Shown here: positions 2-60,215 of the stretch, in pieces
Layout of the letters: every line of letters begins with the position of its first letter
Numbering within the stretch: the first letter of the stretch is position 1
Assembly: GCF_003790525.1 (NCBI RefSeq)
Contig: NZ_CP033635.1
Origin: Escherichia coli
GTDB lineage: Bacteria; Pseudomonadota; Gammaproteobacteria; Enterobacterales; Enterobacteriaceae
Direction: 5' to 3' (one strand)
DNA length: 64,000 nucleotides
Notes under the pieces: generated by a model
The model's database searches: none
Told to the model about the DNA's origin: nothing
Seen by the model: only the letters and a program-made list of their open reading frames with translations
Position numbers and translations under genes: made by a program

Positions 2-3000
2 ACAACCACCATCAAAAATGGCGGTGAGCAAAGAGTATATGAGAGCCGTGCGCTGGACACTACGATTGAAGGCGGAACTCAGTCTCTGAATAGTAATTCA
101 ACGGCAAAAAATACGCAGATCTATTCTGGTGGTACGCAAATTGTTGATTACACCAGCACCTCGGATGTTATTGAAATTTATTCCGGTGGCGTGCTTGATG
201 TTAGAGGTGGTATGGCAACAAATGTTACTCAGCACGATGGAGCCGCTTTAAAAGTAACGACTTACGATTTGACGGTGAGCGGTACGAATAGTGAAGGGGC
301 ATTCTCCATCCACAATAACGTGGCAGACAATGTGTTGCTGGAAAACGGTGGTCATTTAGACGTATATGGTTCGGCAACCAGGACGATAATTAAAGATAAA
401 GGAACAATGTCAGTTTTAACGAATGCTAAAGCTGATGCGACCCGAATAGATAATGGCGGGGTTATGGATGTCGCCGGAAACGCGACCAATACCATAATCA
501 ATGGTGGTACACAGAATATTAATAATCATGGTATTGCCACTGGCACCAATATCAACAGTGGAACGCAAAATATCAAGAGCGGCGGGAAAGCTGACACGAC
601 AAATATATCCTCCGGGAGCCGGCAGATTGTTGAGAAAGATGGTACGGCAACTGGCAGCAATATTAGCGCTGGAGGCTCGCTGATTGTCTATACCGGCGGT
701 ATTGCACATGGGGTTAACCAGGAGACGGGCAGTGCTTTAGTTGCCAACACGGGCGCAGGGACTGATATCGAAGGATACAACAAGCTCTCTCGCTTCACTA
801 TTATCGGAGGAGAGGCTAATTATGTTGTGCTGGAAAATACCGGCGAACTGACGGTAGTGGCTAAAACCTCGGCGAAAAATACTACCATTGATGCTGGCGG
901 TAAGCTGATTGTCCAGAAGGAGGCTAAAACAGATAGCACCAGACTTAATAATGGCGGCGTTCTGGAGGTTCAGGACGGTGGTGAGGCTAAGCATGTTGAG
1001 CAACAATCCGGCGGCGCATTAATTGCTTCCACGACCTCCGGAACACTTATCGAAGGAACCAACAGTTATGGTGATGCTTTCTACATCAGGAATTCAGAAG
1101 CTAAAAATGTAGTGCTGGAAAACGCTGGCTCATTAACAGTCGTCACTGGTTCCCGGGCAGTTGACACGATTATTAATGCCAACGGCAAAATGGATGTTTA
1201 TGGAAAAGATGTTGGTACTGTACTTAATAGTGCGGGTACCCAAACAATATATGCCAGTGCCACTTCTGAAAAAGCAAATATCAAAGGTGGCAAGCAAACG
1301 GTATATGGTTTAGCCACTGAGGCAAATATCGAAAGTGGTGAACAAATTGTTGATGGTGGGTCAACAGATAAAACGCACATCAAAGGCGGCACGCAAACCG
1401 TTCAGAATTATGGTAAGGCGATCAATACCGATATCGTCTCTGGCCTACAACAAATTATGGCAAACGGGACAGCGGAAGGTTCCATTATTAATGGCGGTTC
1501 ACAGGTAGTTAATGAGGGCGGTCTGGCTGAAAACTCGGTACTTAATGACGGCGGCACACTCGATGTGCGGGAGAAAGGCAGCGCTACGGGGATACAGCAG
1601 AGTAGCCAGGGCGCGTTGGTGGCAACCACCAGAGCGACGCGGGTCACAGGGACACGCGCTGATGGCGTCGCGTTCAGCATCGAGCAGGGTGCGGCGAACA
1701 ATATCCTGCTGACAAATGGCGGCGTGTTAACCGTGGAGTCAGACACCTCTTCCGCCAAAACACAGGTCAATGCGGGCGGGCGGGAGATCGTCAAAACAAA
1801 AGCCACTGCGACAGGCACGACGCTCACCGGCGGCGAACAAATCGTCGAGGGTGTGGCGAATGAGACAACGATTAACGACGGCGGAATACAAACAGTTTCG
1901 GCTAACGGTGAGGCAGTAAAAACAACGATTAATGAAGGCGGTACGCTGACAGTCAACGATAATGGCAAAGCGACAGATATCATCCAGAACAGCGGTGCCG
2001 CTCTCCAGACGAGCACGGCTAACGGTATTGAAATCAGCGGTACTCACCAGTACGGCACCTTTTCCATTGCCGGAAATTTAGCGACCAATGCGTTGCTGGA
2101 AAATGGCGGTAATTTATTGGTATTAGCAGGTACCGAAGCCCGTGACTCCACGGTTGGCAAGGGTGGTGCAATGCAAAACCTGGGTCAGGACTCCGCCACA
2201 AAGGTTAACTCTGGCGGGCAATATACCCTTGGGCGGTCAAAAGATGAGTTTCAGGCTCTGGCCCGGGCAGAAGATCTCCAGGTCGCTGGCGGGACGGCAA
2301 TCGTCTATGCAGGTACGCTGGCGGATGCATCGGTCAGTGGCGCGACAGGAAGCCTGTCGTTAATGACGCCACGGGATAATGTTACGCCAGTTAAACTCGA
2401 AGGGGCGATCCGGATTACCGATAGCGCGACATTAACTATCGGAAATGGCGTCGATACGACGCTTACCGACCTGACGGCTGCCAGCCGGGGCAGTGTCTGG
2501 CTTAACAGCAATAATTCCTGTGCAGGTACCAGCAACTGCGAATATAGAGTAAACAGTTTGCTCCTCAACGACGGTGATGTTTATTTATCAGCACAAACAG
2601 CAGCGCCTGCCACAACTAACGGTATCTACAATACGCTGACAACCAGTGAACTTTCCGGCAGCGGTAATTTCTACCTGCATACCAACGTTGCAGGCTCCCG
2701 GGGCGATCAACTGGTCGTCAACAACAACGCCACTGGTAATTTTAAAATCTTTGTTCAGGATACCGGCGTCAGCCCTCAGTCTGACGACGCGATGACGCTG
2801 GTGAAAACAGGGGGAGGGGATGCTTCGTTTACGCTGGGTAATACCGGCGGTTTCGTTGATCTTGGGACCTATGAGTATGTCCTGAAAAGCGACGGCAACA
2901 GCAACTGGAACCTGACCAATGATGTCAAACCCAACCCGGACCCCAACCCAAATCCGAAGCCGGATCCAAAACCAGACCCAAAACCGGATCCGAAACCAGA

Positions 3001-3955
3001 CCCGACTCCCGATCCAACGCCGACACCCGTCCCGGAGAAACGCATCACGCCTTCTACGGCAGCCGTACTCAATATGGCAGCAACATTACCGTTGGTCTTT
3101 GATGCTGAGCTAAACAGTATTCGCGAGCGGTTGAACATAATGAAAGCGAGTCCACACAACAATAATGTCTGGGGGACGACGTATAACACCCGTAATAATG
3201 TCACCACCGATGCGGGTGCCGGGTTTGAGCAGACGCTGACCGGAATGACGGTGGGGATCGATAGCCGTAATGATATTCCTGAGGGGATTGCGACGCTGGG
3301 CGCTTTTATGGGTTATTCCCATTCACATATCGGTTTTGATCGTGGAGGACATGGCAGTGTGGGCAGTTATTCTCTGGGGGGCTATGCCAGCTGGGAACAT
3401 GAAAGTGGTTTCTATCTGGACGGTATCGTGAAGCTGAACCGCTTTGAAAGTAACGTAGCCGGTAAAATGAGCAGCGGTGGAGCCGCCAACGGCAGTTATC
3501 GCAGCAACGGGCTGGGCGGTCACATTGAAACCGGGATGCGATTTACCGATGGTAACTGGAACCTGACGCCGTATGCATCGTTAACGGGGTTCACCGCTGA
3601 TAACCCCGAATATCATTTATCCAATGGCATGGAATCGAAATCAGTCGATACCCGCAGTATATATCGTGAACTGGGCGCAACGCTGAGTTACAACATGCGT
3701 CTGGGGAACGGCATGGAAGTTGAGCCGTGGCTGAAGGCGGCTGTGCGCAAAGAATTTGTCGATGATAACCGGGTGAAAGTGAATAATGACGGTAATTTTG
3801 TCAATGATTTGTCGGGCAGACGTGGAATATACCAGGCAGGTATTAAAGCCTCATTCAGCAGTTCGTTAAGCGGGAATCTCGGGGTGGGGTATAGCCATGG
3901 TGCCGGTGTGGAATCCCCGTGGAACGCAGTGGCTGGTGTGAACTGGTCGTTCTGA
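2..3955 (+). CDS. AIDA-I-type autotransporter adhesin, 5'-partial (reading frame open to the window edge)
   Basis: Frame is open from position 2 with no stop, so the gene starts upstream of the window. Repetitive Gly/Thr/Asn-rich beta-helix-like passenger, Pro-rich PNPDPK linker, C-terminal beta-barrel domain ending in ...NWSF. By position next to ssrA it may be the ypjA ortholog, but that is inferred from context only. Confidence 0.8.
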   Translation, partial: TTTIKNGGEQRVYESRALDTTIEGGTQSLNSNSTAKNTQIYSGGTQIVDYTSTSDVIEIYSGGVLDVRGGMATNVTQHDGAALKVTTYDLTVSGTNSEGAFSIHNNVADNVLLENGGHLDVYGSATRTIIKDKGTMSVLTNAKADATRIDNGGVMDVAGNATNTIINGGTQNINNHGIATGTNINSGTQNIKSGGKADTTNISSGSRQIVEKDGTATGSNISAGGSLIVYTGGIAHGVNQETGSALVANTGAGTDIEGYNKLSRFTIIGGEANYVVLENTGELTVVAKTSAKNTTIDAGGKLIVQKEAKTDSTRLNNGGVLEVQDGGEAKHVEQQSGGALIASTTSGTLIEGTNSYGDAFYIRNSEAKNVVLENAGSLTVVTGSRAVDTIINANGKMDVYGKDVGTVLNSAGTQTIYASATSEKANIKGGKQTVYGLATEANIESGEQIVDGGSTDKTHIKGGTQTVQNYGKAINTDIVSGLQQIMANGTAEGSIINGGSQVVNEGGLAENSVLNDGGTLDVREKGSATGIQQSSQGALVATTRATRVTGTRADGVAFSIEQGAANNILLTNGGVLTVESDTSSAKTQVNAGGREIVKTKATATGTTLTGGEQIVEGVANETTINDGGIQTVSANGEAVKTTINEGGTLTVNDNGKATDIIQNSGAALQTSTANGIEISGTHQYGTFSIAGNLATNALLENGGNLLVLAGTEARDSTVGKGGAMQNLGQDSATKVNSGGQYTLGRSKDEFQALARAEDLQVAGGTAIVYAGTLADASVSGATGSLSLMTPRDNVTPVKLEGAIRITDSATLTIGNGVDTTLTDLTAASRGSVWLNSNNSCAGTSNCEYRVNSLLLNDGDVYLSAQTAAPATTNGIYNTLTTSELSGSGNFYLHTNVAGSRGDQLVVNNNATGNFKIFVQDTGVSPQSDDAMTLVKTGGGDASFTLGNTGGFVDLGTYEYVLKSDGNSNWNLTNDVKPNPDPNPNPKPDPKPDPKPDPKPDPTPDPTPTPVPEKRITPSTAAVLNMAATLPLVFDAELNSIRERLNIMKASPHNNNVWGTTYNTRNNVTTDAGAGFEQTLTGMTVGIDSRNDIPEGIATLGAFMGYSHSHIGFDRGGHGSVGSYSLGGYASWEHESGFYLDGIVKLNRFESNVAGKMSSGGAANGSYRSNGLGGHIETGMRFTDGNWNLTPYASLTGFTADNPEYHLSNGMESKSVDTRSIYRELGATLSYNMRLGNGMEVEPWLKAAVRKEFVDDNRVKVNNDGNFVNDLSGRRGIYQAGIKASFSSSLSGNLGVGYSHGAGVESPWNAVAGVNWSF

Positions 3956-4115
3956 CCATCAACGAAAAAGCCCACATCTGTGGGCTTTCATATCACCAGG
4001 AGCCGCGGCTCCTTTGCGTATCCTTTTTTGTCTCCTCACCGTCTGGTCGGTGTCCTGCTGAGACTGCTAACTTCCTGTTTTTATTGGTGTTGTCCTTACA
4101 CCGTCCAATCATGAT

Positions 4116-4478
4116 TGGTGGAGCTGGCGGGAGTTGAACCCGCGTCCGAAATTCCTACATCCTCGGTACTACATGCTTAGTCAGTCTTTACATTCGCTTG
4201 CCAGCTGCGGACGGACACGCCACTAACAAACTAGCCTGATTAAGTTTTAACGCTTCAACCCCAGGCAGGGCTTCCACGCGATCTCTTTTGGGTTTGACCT
4301 CTCTTGATCCCCGTCCTAAGAGCGGAGGCTAGGGAGAGAGGGCTCTAAGCAGGTTATTAAGCTGCTAAAGCGTAGTTTTCGTCGTTTGCGACTATTTTTT
4401 GCGGCTTTTTACGAGGCCAACCGCCCCTCGGCATGCACCTTGGGTTTCGCAAATCCCGTCGAATCCAGAATCAGCCCC
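4116..4478 (-). ncRNA. ssrA: tmRNA (SsrA), 363 nt
   Basis: Reverse complement reads GGGGCTGATTCTGGATTCGACGGG ... CCAGCTCCACCA and contains the tag reading frame encoding ANDENYALAA; sits downstream of smpB as expected. Confidence 0.95.
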
Positions 4479-9329: not shown

Positions 9330-9953
<624 letters not shown>

Positions 9954-9960
9954 ATATCTG

Positions 9961-9990
9961 ATGGCCGACGCGAAGTCGGCCATTTTTTTA
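9961..9990. terminator. intrinsic terminator shared by grpE and the convergent acidic ORF
   Basis: ATGGCCGACGCGAAGTCGGCCAT hairpin followed by TTTTTTT on the plus strand; the stop codon of the minus-strand ORF lies in the T-run. Confidence 0.75.
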
Positions 9991-10629
9991 GCTTAAAAAA
10001 TCCTGTACTTCCAGCCACGGCGTGTTGAAATCATCTATTTTTTTATATTCGTTCATTGGCAGAACGACCACGTTATAGGTGTCAGATCCTTCATTCAGAT
10101 CAAAAATCTGAAAGCCCCTTTTATTGAGTTCGGTTTGGATGCGTTCAAAGATTTCGTCAAGGTAACGGTCTCCGGCTTCACAGACATCGGAGATTTCATC
10201 CTCTTGGGTTATTTCGACAAGAAGACTCCTTAATTCCTCAGAAGCTGTCAGGTTTTTTGTGAGCTCATAAAAGCGATCTGCAGCAAAATTAGCCAGCTCA
10301 CCTTCTTCATCTTCACCTTTCCAGTCAACGAGTTGAATTAGTCCTTCACCGCGCAGAACCTGTAAAAATGCCTGCGCCAGGTCATGATTTCCGAGATCGC
10401 CTCCACTGCAATCGAGAACGTCTTGTAATCCATATTCGTCTTCATCTTCGTCTTCAAAGATTTCAGGTTGCGTCGAAAGTTGAGAGAAAATAGTGGGCCA
10501 TAAGGTTGGGGTGTGCTGTAAAAAAACGCTGGCGACGACGTTGAGATCGTCTGCAAAATCCTTATCCCATTCAATTAAATAATCTTCTGACATAACATCA
10601 ATATCCTTTCCGAATGTTTGAAAAGACAT
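9988..10629 (-). CDS. hypothetical highly acidic cytoplasmic protein (213 aa), unrecognised, probably accessory
   Basis: Intact ORF; 51 Asp+Glu versus about 13 Lys+Arg; EDEDEDE run; no signal peptide or TM segment; no motif I recognise. Not part of the K-12 grpE-yfjD arrangement as I recall it. Start may be 10629 (no Shine-Dalgarno) or the Met at 10593 (AAGGA about 10 nt upstream). Confidence 0.6.
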   Translation of the reverse strand: MSFQTFGKDIDVMSEDYLIEWDKDFADDLNVVASVFLQHTPTLWPTIFSQLSTQPEIFEDEDEDEYGLQDVLDCSGGDLGNHDLAQAFLQVLRGEGLIQLVDWKGEDEEGELANFAADRFYELTKNLTASEELRSLLVEITQEDEISDVCEAGDRYLDEIFERIQTELNKRGFQIFDLNEGSDTYNVVVLPMNEYKKIDDFNTPWLEVQDFLS

Positions 10630-10682
10630 TATTACATTGCTAAGTAAATGACAGGAATTGATGGAATCCTAAAAGACGGCGA

Positions 10683-10709
10683 TAAAAAAAAAGGCGAACC
10701 GGAGTTCGC
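10683..10709 (-). terminator. intrinsic terminator downstream of yfjD
   Basis: Minus strand reads GGCGAACTCCGGTTCGCC hairpin followed by a T-run (A9 on the plus strand). Confidence 0.7.
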
Positions 10710-10716
10710 CATTGCG

Positions 10717-11979
10717 TTACTCCGCCACGCTCTCGCGTAGCGGTTTCACAGGAAAAACTTTTACCTGCTTAATCATATTGTCCTGAACGTCGAGAATATC
10801 AATATCGTACTCGCCAATACGCACGCGGGTGCCTGCTACCGGGATCTCCTCCAGCGCTTCCAGAATGACGCCGTTAACAGTACGAGCATCATCTTCCGGT
10901 AGATGCCAGTTAAAGGCTTTGTTAATTTCTCGCACGTTGGCAGTGCCATCAATAATCACCGAACCGTCGTTTTGTGGCGTAACTTCTTCGGCAAGTGTTG
11001 GCGACATCGACGTGGTGAAATCGCCGACAATCTCTTCCAGAATATCTTCAACCGTCACCAGCCCCTGAATGTCTCCATACTCGTTGACGACCAGGCCGAC
11101 TTTCTTTTTGTTGCGCTGAAACTTCACCAACTGCGTGCTGAGCGGCGTACCTTCCGGGACAAAATAGATCTCGTCCGCGGCGCGTAGCATGGTTTCTTTG
11201 GTGAACTCTTTTTTCTCCGACATGAGTCGCCAGGCTTCACGCACACGCAGCATACTGATGGCGTCGTCCAGCGAATCACGGTAGAGCACGATGCGCCCGT
11301 GAGGTGAGTGGGAGAGTTGGCGCAGAATCGATTTCCAGTCATCGTTGATATCAATACCGATAATTTCACTGCGCGGCACCATGATGTCATCAACGGTCAT
11401 TTTTTCCAGATCGAGCACCGACAGCAGCATATCCTGATTGCGACGGGAAATTTGTGAGCGCGATTCGTGCACGATAGTGCGCAACTCTTCTTTGCTCAAA
11501 GAGCCGCTAACCACGATATCGGTTTTGATACCCATCATGCGCATCAGCATACGGGTGATAGCATTCAGCAACCAGACCAGCGGCATCATCAAAATTTGCA
11601 GCGGAGCCAGCAGAAAACTACTCGGATAAGCGACTTTTTCCGGGTACAGCGCGGCAATGGTTTTCGGCAATACCTCAGCAAAAACCAGCACGACAAAAGT
11701 CAGCACACCAGTCGCAATTGCCACGCCCGCATCGCCGTACAAACGCATCCCAACAATAGTGCCTAGCGCGGAGGCAAGAATATTGACCAGGTTATTGCCG
11801 ATTAACACCAGGCTAATCAGGCGGTCTGGCTTACGCAGCAATTTTTCGACGCGTTTGGCCGAGCGATTACCCTGTTTCGCCATATGTCGCAGACGATAGC
11901 GGTTGAGGGTCATCATTCCGGTTTCGGACCCGGAAAAATAGGCTGAAATGACCACCATGATGATCAGAATAATGATCAA
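10717..11979 (-). CDS. yfjD: CNNM/CorC-family inner membrane protein (DUF21, CBS pair, CorC-HlyC domains)
   Basis: 420-aa ORF with N-terminal TM helices and C-terminal transporter-associated domain; frame stays open upstream, so the true start is uncertain. Confidence 0.85.
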   Translation of the reverse strand: MIIILIIMVVISAYFSGSETGMMTLNRYRLRHMAKQGNRSAKRVEKLLRKPDRLISLVLIGNNLVNILASALGTIVGMRLYGDAGVAIATGVLTFVVLVFAEVLPKTIAALYPEKVAYPSSFLLAPLQILMMPLVWLLNAITRMLMRMMGIKTDIVVSGSLSKEELRTIVHESRSQISRRNQDMLLSVLDLEKMTVDDIMVPRSEIIGIDINDDWKSILRQLSHSPHGRIVLYRDSLDDAISMLRVREAWRLMSEKKEFTKETMLRAADEIYFVPEGTPLSTQLVKFQRNKKKVGLVVNEYGDIQGLVTVEDILEEIVGDFTTSMSPTLAEEVTPQNDGSVIIDGTANVREINKAFNWHLPEDDARTVNGVILEALEEIPVAGTRVRIGEYDIDILDVQDNMIKQVKVFPVKPLRESVAE

Positions 11980-12023
11980 CGTAGTAGTAGAAATGTGTTC
12001 CAGGGGAAACTCCTTTTCTGGGT

Positions 12024-29509: not shown

Positions 29510-31051
<1,542 letters not shown>

Positions 31052-31136
31052 CCTTAAAGAAGCGTACTTTGAAGTGCTCACACAGATTGTCTGATAGAAA
31101 GTGAAAAGCAAGGCGTCTTGCGAAGCAGACTGATAC

Positions 31137-31212
31137 GTCCCCTTCGTCTAGAGGCCCAGGACACCGCCCTTTCACGGCGGTAACAGGGGTTCGAATCCCC
31201 TAGGGGACGCCA
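31137..31212 (+). tRNA. gltW: tRNA-Glu (spacer tRNA)
   Basis: GTCCCCTTCGTCTAGAGGCCCAGGACACCGCCCTTTCACGGCGGTAACAGGGGTTCGAATCCCCTAGGGGACGCCA. Confidence 0.95.
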
Positions 31213-31405
31213 CTTGCTGGTTTGTGAGTGAAAGTCACCTGCCTTAATATCTCAAAACTCATCTTCGGGTGACGTTTGAGATATTTGCTCTTTAAAAATC
31301 TGGATCAAGCTGAAAATTGAAACACTGAACAACGAAAGTTGTTCGTGAGTCTCTCAAATTTTCGCAACACGATGATGAATCGCAAGAAACATCTTCGGGT
31401 TGTGA

Positions 31406-34309
<2,904 letters not shown>

Positions 34310-34401
34310 ACAACGCCGAAGATGTTTTGGCGGAAGAGAGAAGATTTTCAGCCTGATACAGATTAAATCAGAACGCAGAAGCGGTCTGATGAAACAGAAT
34401 T

Positions 34402-34521
34402 TGCCTGGCGGCCGTAGCGCGGTGGTCCCACCTGACCCCATGCCGAACTCAGAAGTGAAACGCCGTAGCGCCGATGGTAGTGTGGGGTCTCCCCATGCGA
34501 GAGTAGGGAACTGCCAGGCAT
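34402..34521 (+). rRNA. rrfG: 5S ribosomal RNA
   Basis: TGCCTGGCGGCCGTAGCGCGGTGGTCCCACCTGACCCCATGCCGAACTCAG ... CTGCCAGGCAT; 120 nt. Confidence 0.97.
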
Positions 34522-51659: not shown

Positions 51660-52615
51660 TGAAGCAACTTTGGTTTGCCATGTCATTAGTGACAGGTAGC
51701 CTGTTATTCTCTGCTAACGCCTCGGCCACTCCCGCGTCCGGGGCGTTATTACAGCAGATGAACCTGGCCAGTCAGTCACTGAATTACGAGCTGTCATTCA
51801 TCAGCATCAATAAACAGGGTGTTGAGTCTCTGCGTTATCGACATGCACGCCTCGATAACCGTCCTCTTGCACAATTGTTGCAAATGGATGGCCCGCGCCG
51901 GGAAGTGGTACAGCGCGGCAATGAGATCAGCTATTTTGAACCGGGACTTGAACCGTTCACGCTTAATGGCGATTACATTGTTGATTCTCTGCCATCGCTC
52001 ATCTATACCGATTTCAAACGCCTTTCTCCTTACTACGACTTTATCTCCGTCGGGCGCACGCGTATTGCTGATCGTCTTTGCGAAGTTATTCGCGTGGTTG
52101 CCCGAGATGGTACACGCTACAGCTACATCGTGTGGATGGACACCGAATCGAAATTACCGATGAGGGTTGATCTCCTTGATCGCGATGGTGAAACGCTGGA
52201 ACAATTTCGCGTGATTGCTTTTAATGTCAATCAGGATATCAGCAGCAGTATGCAGACGCTGGCGAAGGCAAATTTGCCGCCGTTGCTTTCTGTTCCTGTA
52301 GGTGAAAAAGCTAAATTCAGCTGGACGCCAACCTGGTTGCCACAGGGTTTTAGCGAAGTTTCCAGTAGTCGACGTCCGCTACCGACGATGGACAACATGC
52401 CTATTGAATCACGTCTCTATTCCGACGGATTATTCAGCTTCTCGGTAAACGTTAACCGCGCTACGCCATCGAGCACCGATCAGATGTTGCGCACCGGACG
52501 CAGAACCGTCAGTACAAGCGTACGTGATAACGCCGAAATCACCATTGTCGGTGAACTGCCGCCGCAAACGGCGAAACGCATTGCCGAGAATATTAAGTTC
52601 GGGGCAGCGCAATGA
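51659..52615 (+). CDS. rseB: sigmaE regulatory protein RseB
   Basis: 318-aa secreted ORF; operon position. Confidence 0.95.
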   Translation: MKQLWFAMSLVTGSLLFSANASATPASGALLQQMNLASQSLNYELSFISINKQGVESLRYRHARLDNRPLAQLLQMDGPRREVVQRGNEISYFEPGLEPFTLNGDYIVDSLPSLIYTDFKRLSPYYDFISVGRTRIADRLCEVIRVVARDGTRYSYIVWMDTESKLPMRVDLLDRDGETLEQFRVIAFNVNQDISSSMQTLAKANLPPLLSVPVGEKAKFSWTPTWLPQGFSEVSSSRRPLPTMDNMPIESRLYSDGLFSFSVNVNRATPSSTDQMLRTGRRTVSTSVRDNAEITIVGELPPQTAKRIAENIKFGAAQ

Positions 52616-53091
52616 TCAAAGAGTGGGCTACCGTCGTCTCCTGGGAAAACGGGCAGGCGCTGGTTAGTTGTGATGTTAAAGCCTCATGCAGCAGCTGCGC
52701 TTCACGCGCCGGTTGCGGTAGCCGCGTGTTGAATAAACTTGGCCCGCAAACCACGCATACCATTGTCGTACCCTGTGATGAACCGTTAGTGCCGGGGCAA
52801 AAAGTAGAATTAGGAATCGCCGAAGGCAGCCTGCTTAGCTCCGCATTACTGGTTTATATGTCGCCGTTGGTGGGACTATTCCTCATCGCTTCACTATTTC
52901 AGCTACTCTTTGCTTCAGATATTGCAGCATTATGCGGTGCGATTCTCGGTGGCGTTGGTGGATTCCTGATTGCACGTGGCTGCTCTCGAAAGTTTGCTGC
53001 CCGGTCTGAATGGCAACCGATCATCTTAAGCGTGGCCTTGCCGCCTGGCCTTGTGCGATTTGAAACATCTTCGGAAGACGCGAGCCAGTGA
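52612..53091 (+). CDS. rseC: RseC (SoxR-reducing system component)
   Basis: 159-aa membrane ORF with CSSCASRAGC motif. Confidence 0.9.
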   Translation: MIKEWATVVSWENGQALVSCDVKASCSSCASRAGCGSRVLNKLGPQTTHTIVVPCDEPLVPGQKVELGIAEGSLLSSALLVYMSPLVGLFLIASLFQLLFASDIAALCGAILGGVGGFLIARGCSRKFAARSEWQPIILSVALPPGLVRFETSSEDASQ

Positions 53092-53287
53092 TTTCACTGG
53101 CTTTGTTGCATTTTGCATAACAAATGCGAGGACGTTTCCAGATACCCAATCCATACGGTATGAACATTTCCTCGCCTCAATGTTGTAGTGTAGAATGCGG
53201 CGTTTCTATTAATACAGACGTTAAGCTCAGAACAGCGACTTCTAAAAGCCTGGTTAACCGGGCATTAAGGCACAATAATCATACTTT

Positions 53288-55087
<1,800 letters not shown>

Positions 55088-59795: not shown

Positions 59796-60215
59796 AAAAA
59801 TACCGTTCTCTTTATAAAGTAAAACCCCCGAACTGGTAAGGAACGGGGGTTTTACTTTACAACTTTAATTTTGTGCAGCACACGATTCCAACGGAAATGA
59901 TTATGGATCAATTTAGTTGACCTGTACAAGCAACTTGCAATCTCTGACATAAAAAACGCGAGCCTTTACGAAGAAATCGACATTGATGAAAAGATTAACG
60001 TGACCGCTTTTTGATAAGTACATTAAAATCGGTTTCGTTATTGGCAATTTTGCTGTGCTTTACACCATGCCACTGAATTCCCCCATTGAAACGAGTGGTG
60101 TCGTCAAAGCTCTGGTGTGGAGTGCAGCACTCGATTCCAATAACTCGCACGTTCAGTTTTGGGGTGATGTAAGGGCTAATCTGAACGGCTGCATTCCTTG
60201 TTTAAGGAAAAACGA

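What the first reader, a model, noticed from the sequence alone, without database searches (positions are those of the whole stretch)
9954..10716. Unrecognised acidic ORF inserted between grpE and yfjD in otherwise core backbone
Every other gene in the window is a recognisable core-genome gene in conserved order. This interval holds an intact 213-codon minus-strand ORF (9988..10629) that I do not recognise and that, as I recall the K-12 map, is not part of the grpE-yfjD arrangement. It is neatly bracketed: the yfjD terminator lies just upstream (10683..10709) and its stop sits inside the grpE terminator T-run. Sampled 60-nt segments look somewhat AT-rich (roughly 35-50% G+C by hand count), hinting at horizontal origin. 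A single small cargo gene dropped into a housekeeping locus is the pattern expected for an orphan immunity protein, an anti-restriction or DNA-mimic protein, or another small accessory gene. It is the only plausible candidate for something undescribed in this window.
Basis: partly seen in the sequence, partly recalled or inferred. Interest (0 to 1): 0.75.

Follow-up and report, generated by a model that had tools for sequence, protein, structure and literature searches.

The report
Accessory DUF6630 gene beside grpE
The ORF is a real, selectively maintained gene for a small, very acidic cytoplasmic protein of the catalogued but uncharacterised DUF6630 family; it sits in an old, swappable slot between grpE and yfjD that about 94% of E. 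coli have emptied, and its function is still unknown, with a role in bacterial conflict (immunity or defence) the best guess.

Summary
A minus-strand ORF (9988..10629) lies between the grpE and yfjD terminators. It has 42% G+C against 51% for the window, and its product has pI 4.05. The likely start is the ATG at 10593 (201 aa), as in RefSeq WP_001287889.1, "DUF6630 family protein" (Pfam PF20335, E=1e-10).

It is accessory in E. coli: 303 of 5426 complete genomes, always single-copy in this slot. It is not a private insertion. The same yfjD–DUF6630–grpE order occurs in E. whittamii, Salmonella enterica, Superficieibacter electus and Klebsiella spallanzanii. There are no repeats, integrase, phage or true plasmid copies.

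The cassette evolves separately from its flanks. A Salmonella allele is 90–95% nt identical to the window (flanks 77–89%). Other Salmonella and E. coli alleles are only 61% and 81% aa identical. dN/dS is 0.09–0.14, so the gene is under purifying selection.

Best guess, at low confidence: a stand-alone immunity-type binding protein. The gene is catalogued but uncharacterised. Interest is moderate to low.

The parts
9988..10593 (-). DUF6630 family protein coding sequence (201 aa plus stop), identical to RefSeq WP_001287889.1
   Evidence: ORF list; RefSeq annotation in strain SC516, whose DNA is 100% identical; Pfam PF20335 E=1.3e-10; dN/dS 0.09-0.14; AF2 pLDDT 91
10594..10629 (-). In-frame 12-codon upstream extension to the first ATG, probably not translated
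   Evidence: Homologues start at the position of M13. The first ATG overlaps the -10-like box and has no Shine-Dalgarno sequence. This is inference.
10604..10611 (-). Putative Shine-Dalgarno sequence GGAAAGGA, 10 nt before the ATG at 10593
   Evidence: Read from the sequence; conserved in the Salmonella S2122 cassette
10628..10636 (-). Putative extended -10 promoter element TGTAATAAT (inferred; the consensus scan found no canonical sigma-70 promoter)
   Evidence: Read from the sequence. The scan gave 0 promoter-like sites. The upstream region is about 95% conserved between E. coli and Salmonella S2122.
10684..10710 (-). yfjD intrinsic terminator (GGCGAACTCCGGTTCGCC followed by T9), which separates yfjD from the DUF6630 gene
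   Evidence: Terminator scan; coordinates
9960..9989 (+). grpE intrinsic terminator (10-bp stem plus T-run). It is flanked by an A-run on the other strand, so it probably also ends the DUF6630 transcript. The DUF6630 stop codon overlaps its T-run.
   Evidence: Terminator scan; sequence
9954..10716 (.). The whole 763-bp polymorphic cassette, from the grpE stop to the yfjD stop. In 94% of E. coli it is replaced by an unrelated 54-bp spacer.
   Evidence: Alignment with an empty site; sliding identity shows that the cassette has a history separate from its flanks

Best explanation
Shown: the interval holds one intact gene with its own terminator-bounded unit. It encodes a 201-aa, very acidic, cytoplasmic protein of the uncharacterised DUF6630 family and is under purifying selection. 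The gene occupies an old chromosomal slot between yfjD and grpE that is shared by at least four enterobacterial genera. In that slot, highly divergent alleles and an empty state replace one another by homologous recombination through the conserved flanking genes. Most E. coli have the empty state. Inferred, at low confidence: the protein is a stand-alone conflict-related binding protein, most likely an orphan immunity-type protein. Its acidic surface and the invariant DWxGE...F...D patch would bind and neutralise an incoming basic effector, for example a nuclease delivered by Rhs, T6SS or CDI systems. It would be kept or lost according to which competitors a lineage meets.
For: Identity: Pfam PF20335 E=1.3e-10, with 17 of 18 aligned homologues matching; RefSeq name; Foldseek against AFDB50 returns only DUF6630 models or close homologues named 'cytoplasmic protein'. 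Selection: dN/dS 0.09-0.14. Polymorphism: 303/5426 E. coli genomes, single copy, chromosomal. Shared slot: Salmonella, K. spallanzanii, E. whittamii and Superficieibacter. Decoupled history: against Salmonella S2122 the cassette is 90-95% nt identical and the flanks 77-89%, with dS 0.29 against 0.54 and 1.28. Two Salmonella alleles are only 61% aa identical while their flanks have dS 0.07-0.15. E. coli SCU-172 is 81% aa identical with flanks 96-100% nt identical. There are no repeats or integrase. Conflict link: homologues lie between PDC-S31 and PD-T4-1 defence genes (L031), about 300 bp beyond a small-gene array downstream of an Rhs-core/AHH-nuclease toxin (L030), in a DUF4123 (T6SS adaptor)-linked small-gene array with an IS and Avs2 fragments (L012), and next to MobC and an IS (L023). 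Acidity (pI 4.05-4.4) is conserved across the proteobacterial clade. G+C is low in every host.
Against: No toxin gene lies next to the gene in the window, and in none of about 12 distinct contexts is a DUF6630 gene immediately downstream of a toxin. In L030 it is on the opposite strand to the array. Seven contexts are solitary genes among housekeeping genes. There is no match to any Imm/SUKH Pfam family, PADLOC or NCBIfam model. No codon window shows pN/pS above 1, so there is no sign of a diversifying interface. The invariant D, E, D and near-invariant R would also fit an enzyme active site. The island association rests on 4 of about 12 contexts and was judged after the fact. Expression was not tested, and no canonical promoter was found.
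Confidence: 0.35

Rival explanations
1. A single-gene anti-phage defence protein, or an accessory or sensor component of one. The DUF6630 protein would act against phage rather than against bacterial toxins.
For: The 45%-identical homologue in L031 sits directly between PDC-S31 (E=3.7e-98) and PD-T4-1 (E=5.9e-185). L012 carries Avs2 fragments and L030 a KAP NTPase. Presence/absence polymorphism and divergent alleles are typical of defence genes.
Against: No PADLOC model matches the protein. It has no recognisable effector domain such as a nuclease, NADase or pore. In Enterobacteriaceae it sits alone in a housekeeping locus, not in a defence island.
Confidence: 0.15
2. An enzyme of unknown activity. 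The invariant acidic residues (D90, E94, D171) and R107 would form a metal- or substrate-binding site on a new alpha/beta fold.
For: These residues are invariant or nearly so down to about 20% identity. Purifying selection is uniform along the gene. Many homologues are solitary, with no partner gene.
Confidence: 0.15
3. A locus-specific partner of a neighbouring gene. It could modulate the CNNM/CorB-type transporter YfjD (for example as an acidic divalent-cation-binding protein), or be a factor linked to the heat-shock chaperones.
For: It lies immediately downstream of yfjD and in the same orientation in four genera. It is next to grpE here, and a distant homologue lies between recR and htpG (L015). 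It has 49 acidic residues.
Against: A strong terminator separates it from yfjD, and it is convergent with grpE. Homologues in L008, L011, L012, L014, L024, L027, L030 and L031 have neither a CNNM nor a chaperone neighbour. Most E. coli keep yfjD and grpE without it.
Confidence: 0.1
4. A DNA-mimic or anti-restriction protein left behind by a mobile element (one of the first reader's suggestions).
For: Strong acidity (pI 4.05), small size and low G+C.
Against: There are no homologues in 50,697 phage records, BFVD or IMG/VR. The only two 'plasmid' hits carry the chromosomal ffh-bamE block. There is no fold match to ArdA, Ocr or other solved mimics. The distant relatives are not very acidic (pI about 5.0-5.4).
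Confidence: 0.04
5. A decaying relic with no current function.
For: It has been lost from 94% of E. coli. Many truncated versions (83-187 aa) exist in databases.
Against: It is intact here and in 303 genomes. dN/dS is 0.09-0.14 at every divergence level measured, from closely related E. coli alleles to other genera. The fold is confidently predicted.
Confidence: 0.05

Closest known systems
Pfam PF20335 (DUF6630) / RefSeq 'DUF6630 family protein' WP_001287889.1
   Same: HMM match (E=1.3e-10). Shares the DWxGE...F...D motif. The predicted fold superposes on AFDB DUF6630 models (TM 0.5-0.98). The sequence is identical to the RefSeq protein.
   Different: Nothing differs; it is a member. The enterobacterial clade is a divergent, more acidic branch with an extra N-terminal helical region. 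The family has no known function, no solved structure, and no paper in the searched library.
Orphan immunity proteins of polymorphic toxin systems (Rhs / CDI / T6SS; Zhang et al. 2012 classification, cited from memory)
   Same: Small, cytoplasmic, acidic and AT-rich. Shows strain-level presence/absence with deeply divergent alleles. Some homologues lie beside Rhs-AHH or T6SS-linked small-gene arrays.
   Different: There is no adjacent toxin, no match to any Imm or SUKH family, and no locally elevated dN/dS. Here it sits at a fixed housekeeping slot rather than in an rhs or cdi locus.
Single-gene anti-phage systems found in the E. coli pangenome (e.g. PD-T4-1; Vassallo et al., bioRxiv 10.1101/2022.05.12.491691)
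   Same: A variable accessory single gene. A homologue is the immediate neighbour of PD-T4-1 in a defence island.
   Different: No PADLOC model matches, it has no recognisable effector domain, and it has not been reported as protective.
DNA-mimic anti-restriction proteins (ArdA, Ocr)
   Same: Strongly acidic small protein.
   Different: There is no sequence or fold similarity, and it is not carried by phages or plasmids.

Membership tests
DUF6630 (Pfam PF20335) | Significant match to the family HMM | tested here: met
   E=1.3e-10, 42.3 bits, residues 54-199 of the 213-aa ORF; 17 of 18 aligned homologues match at E<=0.001
DUF6630 (Pfam PF20335) | Conserved core motif (V/I)DWxGE...F...R and a later GxDxY turn | tested here: met
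   D90, E94 and F103 are invariant; G93, G98, R107 and D171 are nearly invariant. D, W, G, E, F and D are invariant in the distant set.
DUF6630 (Pfam PF20335) | Same predicted fold as other members | tested here: met
   In Foldseek against AFDB50, every hit at E<=0.001 is a DUF6630 protein or a close homologue named 'cytoplasmic protein', including Budvicia, Providencia, Bacteroides and Paenibacillus
Polymorphic-toxin immunity protein | Encoded immediately downstream of, and co-oriented with, its cognate toxin (or within an orphan toxin-tip/immunity array) | tested here: not met
   The neighbours in the window are grpE and yfjD. No context has an adjacent toxin. L030 and L012 are only near such arrays.
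Polymorphic-toxin immunity protein | Membership of a described immunity family (Pfam Imm*, SUKH/SMI1_KNR4, etc.) | tested here: not met
Polymorphic-toxin immunity protein | Binds and neutralises a specific toxin domain | not testable with these tools
   Needs co-expression, pull-down or competition assays
Anti-phage defence system | Match to a known or candidate defence model | tested here: not met
   PADLOC gave 0 families at E<=1
Anti-phage defence system | Located in defence islands | tested here: inconclusive
   Not in the window. Yes for the L031 homologue (PDC-S31 and PD-T4-1 as neighbours), and partly for L012 and L030.
DNA mimic / anti-restriction (ArdA, Ocr) | Sequence or fold similarity to a known mimic | tested here: not met
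DNA mimic / anti-restriction (ArdA, Ocr) | Carried by phages, plasmids or other mobile elements | tested here: not met
   No phage match; no BFVD match; no IMG/VR match; the plasmid hits are chromosomal blocks
Site-specifically inserted genomic islet | Flanking direct repeats, or an integrase, transposase or tRNA target | tested here: not met
   Only short chance repeats. There is no integrase. The boundaries fall exactly at the two stop codons.

The most novel reading that the evidence does not exclude
DUF6630 would be the first example of a new-fold family of stand-alone immunity or defence proteins. Enterobacteria would keep it as a trans-species set of divergent allelic cassettes, plus a null allele, at a fixed housekeeping slot, exchanged between genera by flank-mediated recombination. 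This would be a mode of immunity-gene carriage distinct from rhs, cdi or T6SS loci and from defence islands.
Probability: 0.2. Interest if true: 0.6.

Novelty: already known. Interest (0 to 1): 0.3.

Why it matters
As a sequence, this gene is already in RefSeq and Pfam, so the window does not reveal a new entity. What remains open is the function of DUF6630. The family has a confidently predicted fold with no solved relative and no literature. It recurs in defence and toxin-immunity neighbourhoods. In enterobacteria it behaves as a swappable allelic cassette next to grpE, shared across genera. That makes it a cheap and well-defined candidate for a competition or phage-resistance assay, since natural carrier strains such as E24377A and O103:H2 12009 can be compared with K-12, which lacks it. 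If it does nothing measurable, it is one more orphan accessory gene.

Tried and rejected
- Family libraries: NCBIfam, PADLOC and PHROGs gave nothing significant.
- Solved structures by sequence: single-sequence and profile searches of the PDB gave only chance hits at E>0.1.
- Domain fusions: two profile searches of 5.8 billion proteins found no multidomain relatives.
- Family size: an exhaustive HMMER search of 1.84 billion representatives found only 34 at E<=0.001, so the family is narrow at the sequence level.
- Literature: searches for DUF6630, PF20335, the three WP accessions, STM2680 (a locus tag recalled from memory) and DUF4240 all returned 0 papers.
- Phage and plasmid origin: rejected.
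- Insertion signatures (repeats, integrase): none.
- Localised positive selection: not seen.
- Genome and metagenome scans: mostly re-found the same slot because the peptide patterns were narrow. The first attempt, with the wide alignment, failed for lack of a conserved stretch.
- Canonical sigma-70 promoter scan: none found.

Full report
**Observation**

The window has a minus-strand ORF at 9988..10629, 213 codons from the first ATG. It lies between grpE (9363..9953, +) and yfjD (10717..12003, -).

Its stop codon overlaps the T-run of the grpE terminator (hairpin 9960-9984). The yfjD terminator (stem 10710-10693, T9 10692-10684) lies just upstream.

The 213-codon ORF is 42.1% G+C with GC3 39%. 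The window is 50.7% G+C, and the neighbouring genes have GC3 51-64%.

One correction concerns the start. The probable start is the ATG at 10593, which gives 201 aa. RefSeq annotates that start. Nearly all full-length homologues are 199-203 aa and begin at that position. A GGAAAGGA box lies 10 nt upstream of it. The first ATG (10629) has no ribosome-binding site and overlaps an extended -10-like TGTAATAAT. The promoter assignment is inference only, because the consensus scan found no canonical sigma-70 site.

**What it is**

The protein matches Pfam PF20335 (DUF6630) at E=1.3e-10. It is identical to RefSeq WP_001287889.1, "DUF6630 family protein", in E. coli SC516. That strain's DNA is 100% identical to the window over 2.1 kb.

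No other library recognises it:
- NCBIfam, PADLOC and PHROGs gave nothing significant.
- Sequence and profile searches of the PDB gave only chance hits.

An AlphaFold2 model built from an 18-sequence alignment is confident (pLDDT 91, pTM 0.88). It has an N-terminal helical region followed by an alpha/beta part with four strands.
- Foldseek against BFVD gave nothing.
- Foldseek against AFDB50 returned only DUF6630 proteins or close homologues named "cytoplasmic protein", from Enterobacterales, Bacteroidota, Bacillota and others.

At the sequence level the family is narrow. Only 34 of 1.84 billion representatives scored E<=0.001. The conserved core is (V/I)DWKGEDEEGQLAxFAxxR plus a later GxDxY turn. 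D90, E94 and F103 are invariant, and G93, G98, R107 and D171 are nearly so. No domain fusions were found. No paper in the searchable library mentions the family or its accessions.

**Is it a real gene?**

Yes. Pairwise Nei-Gojobori dN/dS is 0.09-0.14 at every divergence level measured, from E. coli alleles to Salmonella and Superficieibacter. No 30-codon window has pN/pS above 1.

**Distribution and evolution**

In 5426 complete E. coli genomes the grpE-yfjD region is universal, but the gene is present in only 303 (5.6%). It is always single-copy, chromosomal and in this slot. Carriers include E24377A, O103:H2 12009 and O45:H2 strains.

The other genomes have an unrelated 54-bp spacer with a different terminator. 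The breakpoints fall at the last codons of grpE and at the yfjD stop. GrpE is 196 aa in carriers and 197 aa in the empty-site strain examined.

There are no flanking repeats, no integrase and no transposase.

The same yfjD-DUF6630-grpE order is found in:
- Salmonella enterica
- Klebsiella spallanzanii
- Escherichia whittamii and Superficieibacter electus
- E. coli- and Salmonella-like metagenome contigs

The slot is therefore old, and the K-12 state is most simply a loss.

The cassette does not share the history of its flanks:

| Comparison with the window | Cassette | Flanks |
|---|---|---|
| Salmonella S2122 / Senftenberg | 90-95% nt identical, including both terminators and the upstream region; dS 0.29 | 77-89% nt identical; dS 0.54 (grpE), 1.28 (yfjD) |
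| Other Salmonella (class B allele) | 61% aa identical | about 75-92% nt identical |
| E. coli SCU-172 | 81% aa identical; dS 0.75 | 96-100% nt identical |

In addition, the two Salmonella allele classes differ from each other at 61% aa identity, while their flanks have dS of only 0.07-0.15.

GC3 stays at 0.40-0.49 in every host.

The picture is a set of deeply divergent allelic cassettes, plus a null allele, that replace one another by homologous recombination through grpE and yfjD, including across genera.

**Mobile-element origin**

There is no relative in 50,697 phage records or in IMG/VR. The only two plasmid-collection hits are Salmonella records that carry the whole chromosomal ffh-bamE block.

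**Function**

Nothing identifies the function directly, so context is the only lead.

In seven contexts the homologue is a solitary gene among housekeeping genes:
- L008/L022 and L011
- L014
- L015, between recR and htpG
- L024-26
- L027
- the enterobacterial grpE slot itself

In four contexts it lies in conflict-type neighbourhoods:
- **L031** (45% identity): it sits between a PDC-S31 candidate defence gene (E=3.7e-98), a DUF4240 gene, and the experimentally defined single-gene system PD-T4-1 (E=5.9e-185; system from bioRxiv 10.1101/2022.05.12.491691).
- **L030** (Chitinophaga): it is about 300 bp beyond an eight-gene array of small ORFs, one with a faint Imm26 hit. The array lies downstream of a protein with an Rhs core (TIGR03696, above cut-off) and an AHH nuclease tip. 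The DUF6630 gene is on the opposite strand to the array.
- **L012** (38% identity): it ends a duplicated small-gene array downstream of a T6SS DUF4123 adaptor, next to an IS and Avs2 fragments.
- **L023**: it is near an IS and the conjugal-transfer gene MobC.

I therefore commit to this reading: a stand-alone conflict-related binding protein, most likely of the orphan-immunity type. This rests on the island contexts together with the small size, the cytoplasmic location, the acidity (conserved at pI 4.05-4.4 in the proteobacterial clade), the low G+C, the presence/absence polymorphism and the deep allele classes.

Confidence is low, about 0.35, for these reasons:
- No cognate toxin is adjacent in any context.
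- No known immunity family matches.
- There is no diversifying signal.
- The invariant D/E/D/R set would suit an enzyme equally well.

The rivals are a single-gene defence protein, an unknown enzyme, a YfjD- or chaperone-linked partner, a DNA mimic (largely excluded by distribution) and a decaying relic (contradicted by dN/dS).

**Comparison with the known, and verdict**

It is a member of DUF6630, and all three membership features were tested and met. It fails the testable membership criteria for described immunity families, PADLOC defence systems, DNA mimics and site-specific islets. It may still work like an immunity protein.

As an entity it is already catalogued, so novelty is "already known". 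The open question is the function of the family. Interest is moderate to low (0.3). The most novel reading not excluded is a new-fold immunity or defence family carried as a trans-species allelic cassette at a housekeeping slot, which I put at about 0.2.

Noticed in passing
window 191-4478: The tmRNA gene ssrA (4116-4478, -) is followed directly by a large autotransporter-type ORF (191..3955, +; more than 1254 aa, with a PNPKPDPKPDP linker and a beta-barrel-like C-terminus). No integrase or prophage lies between them. From memory, K-12 has the CP4-57 prophage at this ssrA site, so this strain appears to lack it.
   Followed up: no
window 9940-9953 vs L002 1640-1660: The C-terminus of GrpE depends on the state of the slot. 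Carriers in E. coli, Salmonella, Superficieibacter and E. whittamii end ...VAKAK (196 aa). The empty-site E. coli ends ...AKAKD (197 aa). The event that emptied the slot therefore rewrote the last grpE codons.
   Followed up: partly
L028 (NZ_CP110658.1, pS2122_1) and L029 (NZ_LN868944.1): Two Salmonella records filed as plasmids carry the core chromosomal block ffh-ypjD-yfjD-DUF6630-grpE-nadK-recN-bamE. One is a 272-kb record typed IncHI2A and the other is a 728-kb 'plasmid 2'. They are probably misassemblies or chromosome fragments, but a real plasmid-chromosome hybrid is possible.
   Followed up: no
L031 1692-6056: A metagenome contig (RCUN01000046.1, 43% G+C) holds a compact defence island: PDC-S31, DUF4240, DUF6630 and PD-T4-1. 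Nearby is an HNH-like small ORF pair and an unannotated 332-aa gene.
   Followed up: partly
L015 4044-7647: A distant DUF6630 gene (185 aa) sits between recR and htpG. This is a second case of the family lying beside a heat-shock chaperone gene, after grpE here. It may be coincidence.
   Followed up: no
L009 (E. coli SCU-172), aligned to window 10000-10700: The divergent E. coli allele is mosaic. It is 94-99% identical to the window allele at the 3' end of the gene (window 10000-10100) but only 75-77% in the middle (10200-10400). This indicates recombination within the gene between allele classes.
   Followed up: partly
window 12001-12003: The RefSeq yfjD model (1287 nt) begins at a CTG codon in this sequence, whereas the mechanical ORF list starts at a TTG 24 nt downstream (11979). 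The true start of yfjD is uncertain.
   Followed up: no
window 29510-34519, 52576-53406, 59816-59892: Rfam hits elsewhere in the window are the expected core features: an rRNA operon with a spacer tRNA and StyR-44, the AsrC antisense RNA, rncO, the Phe leader, RyfD, and the ohsC antitoxin sRNA of a type I toxin-antitoxin pair. None looked unusual.
   Followed up: no
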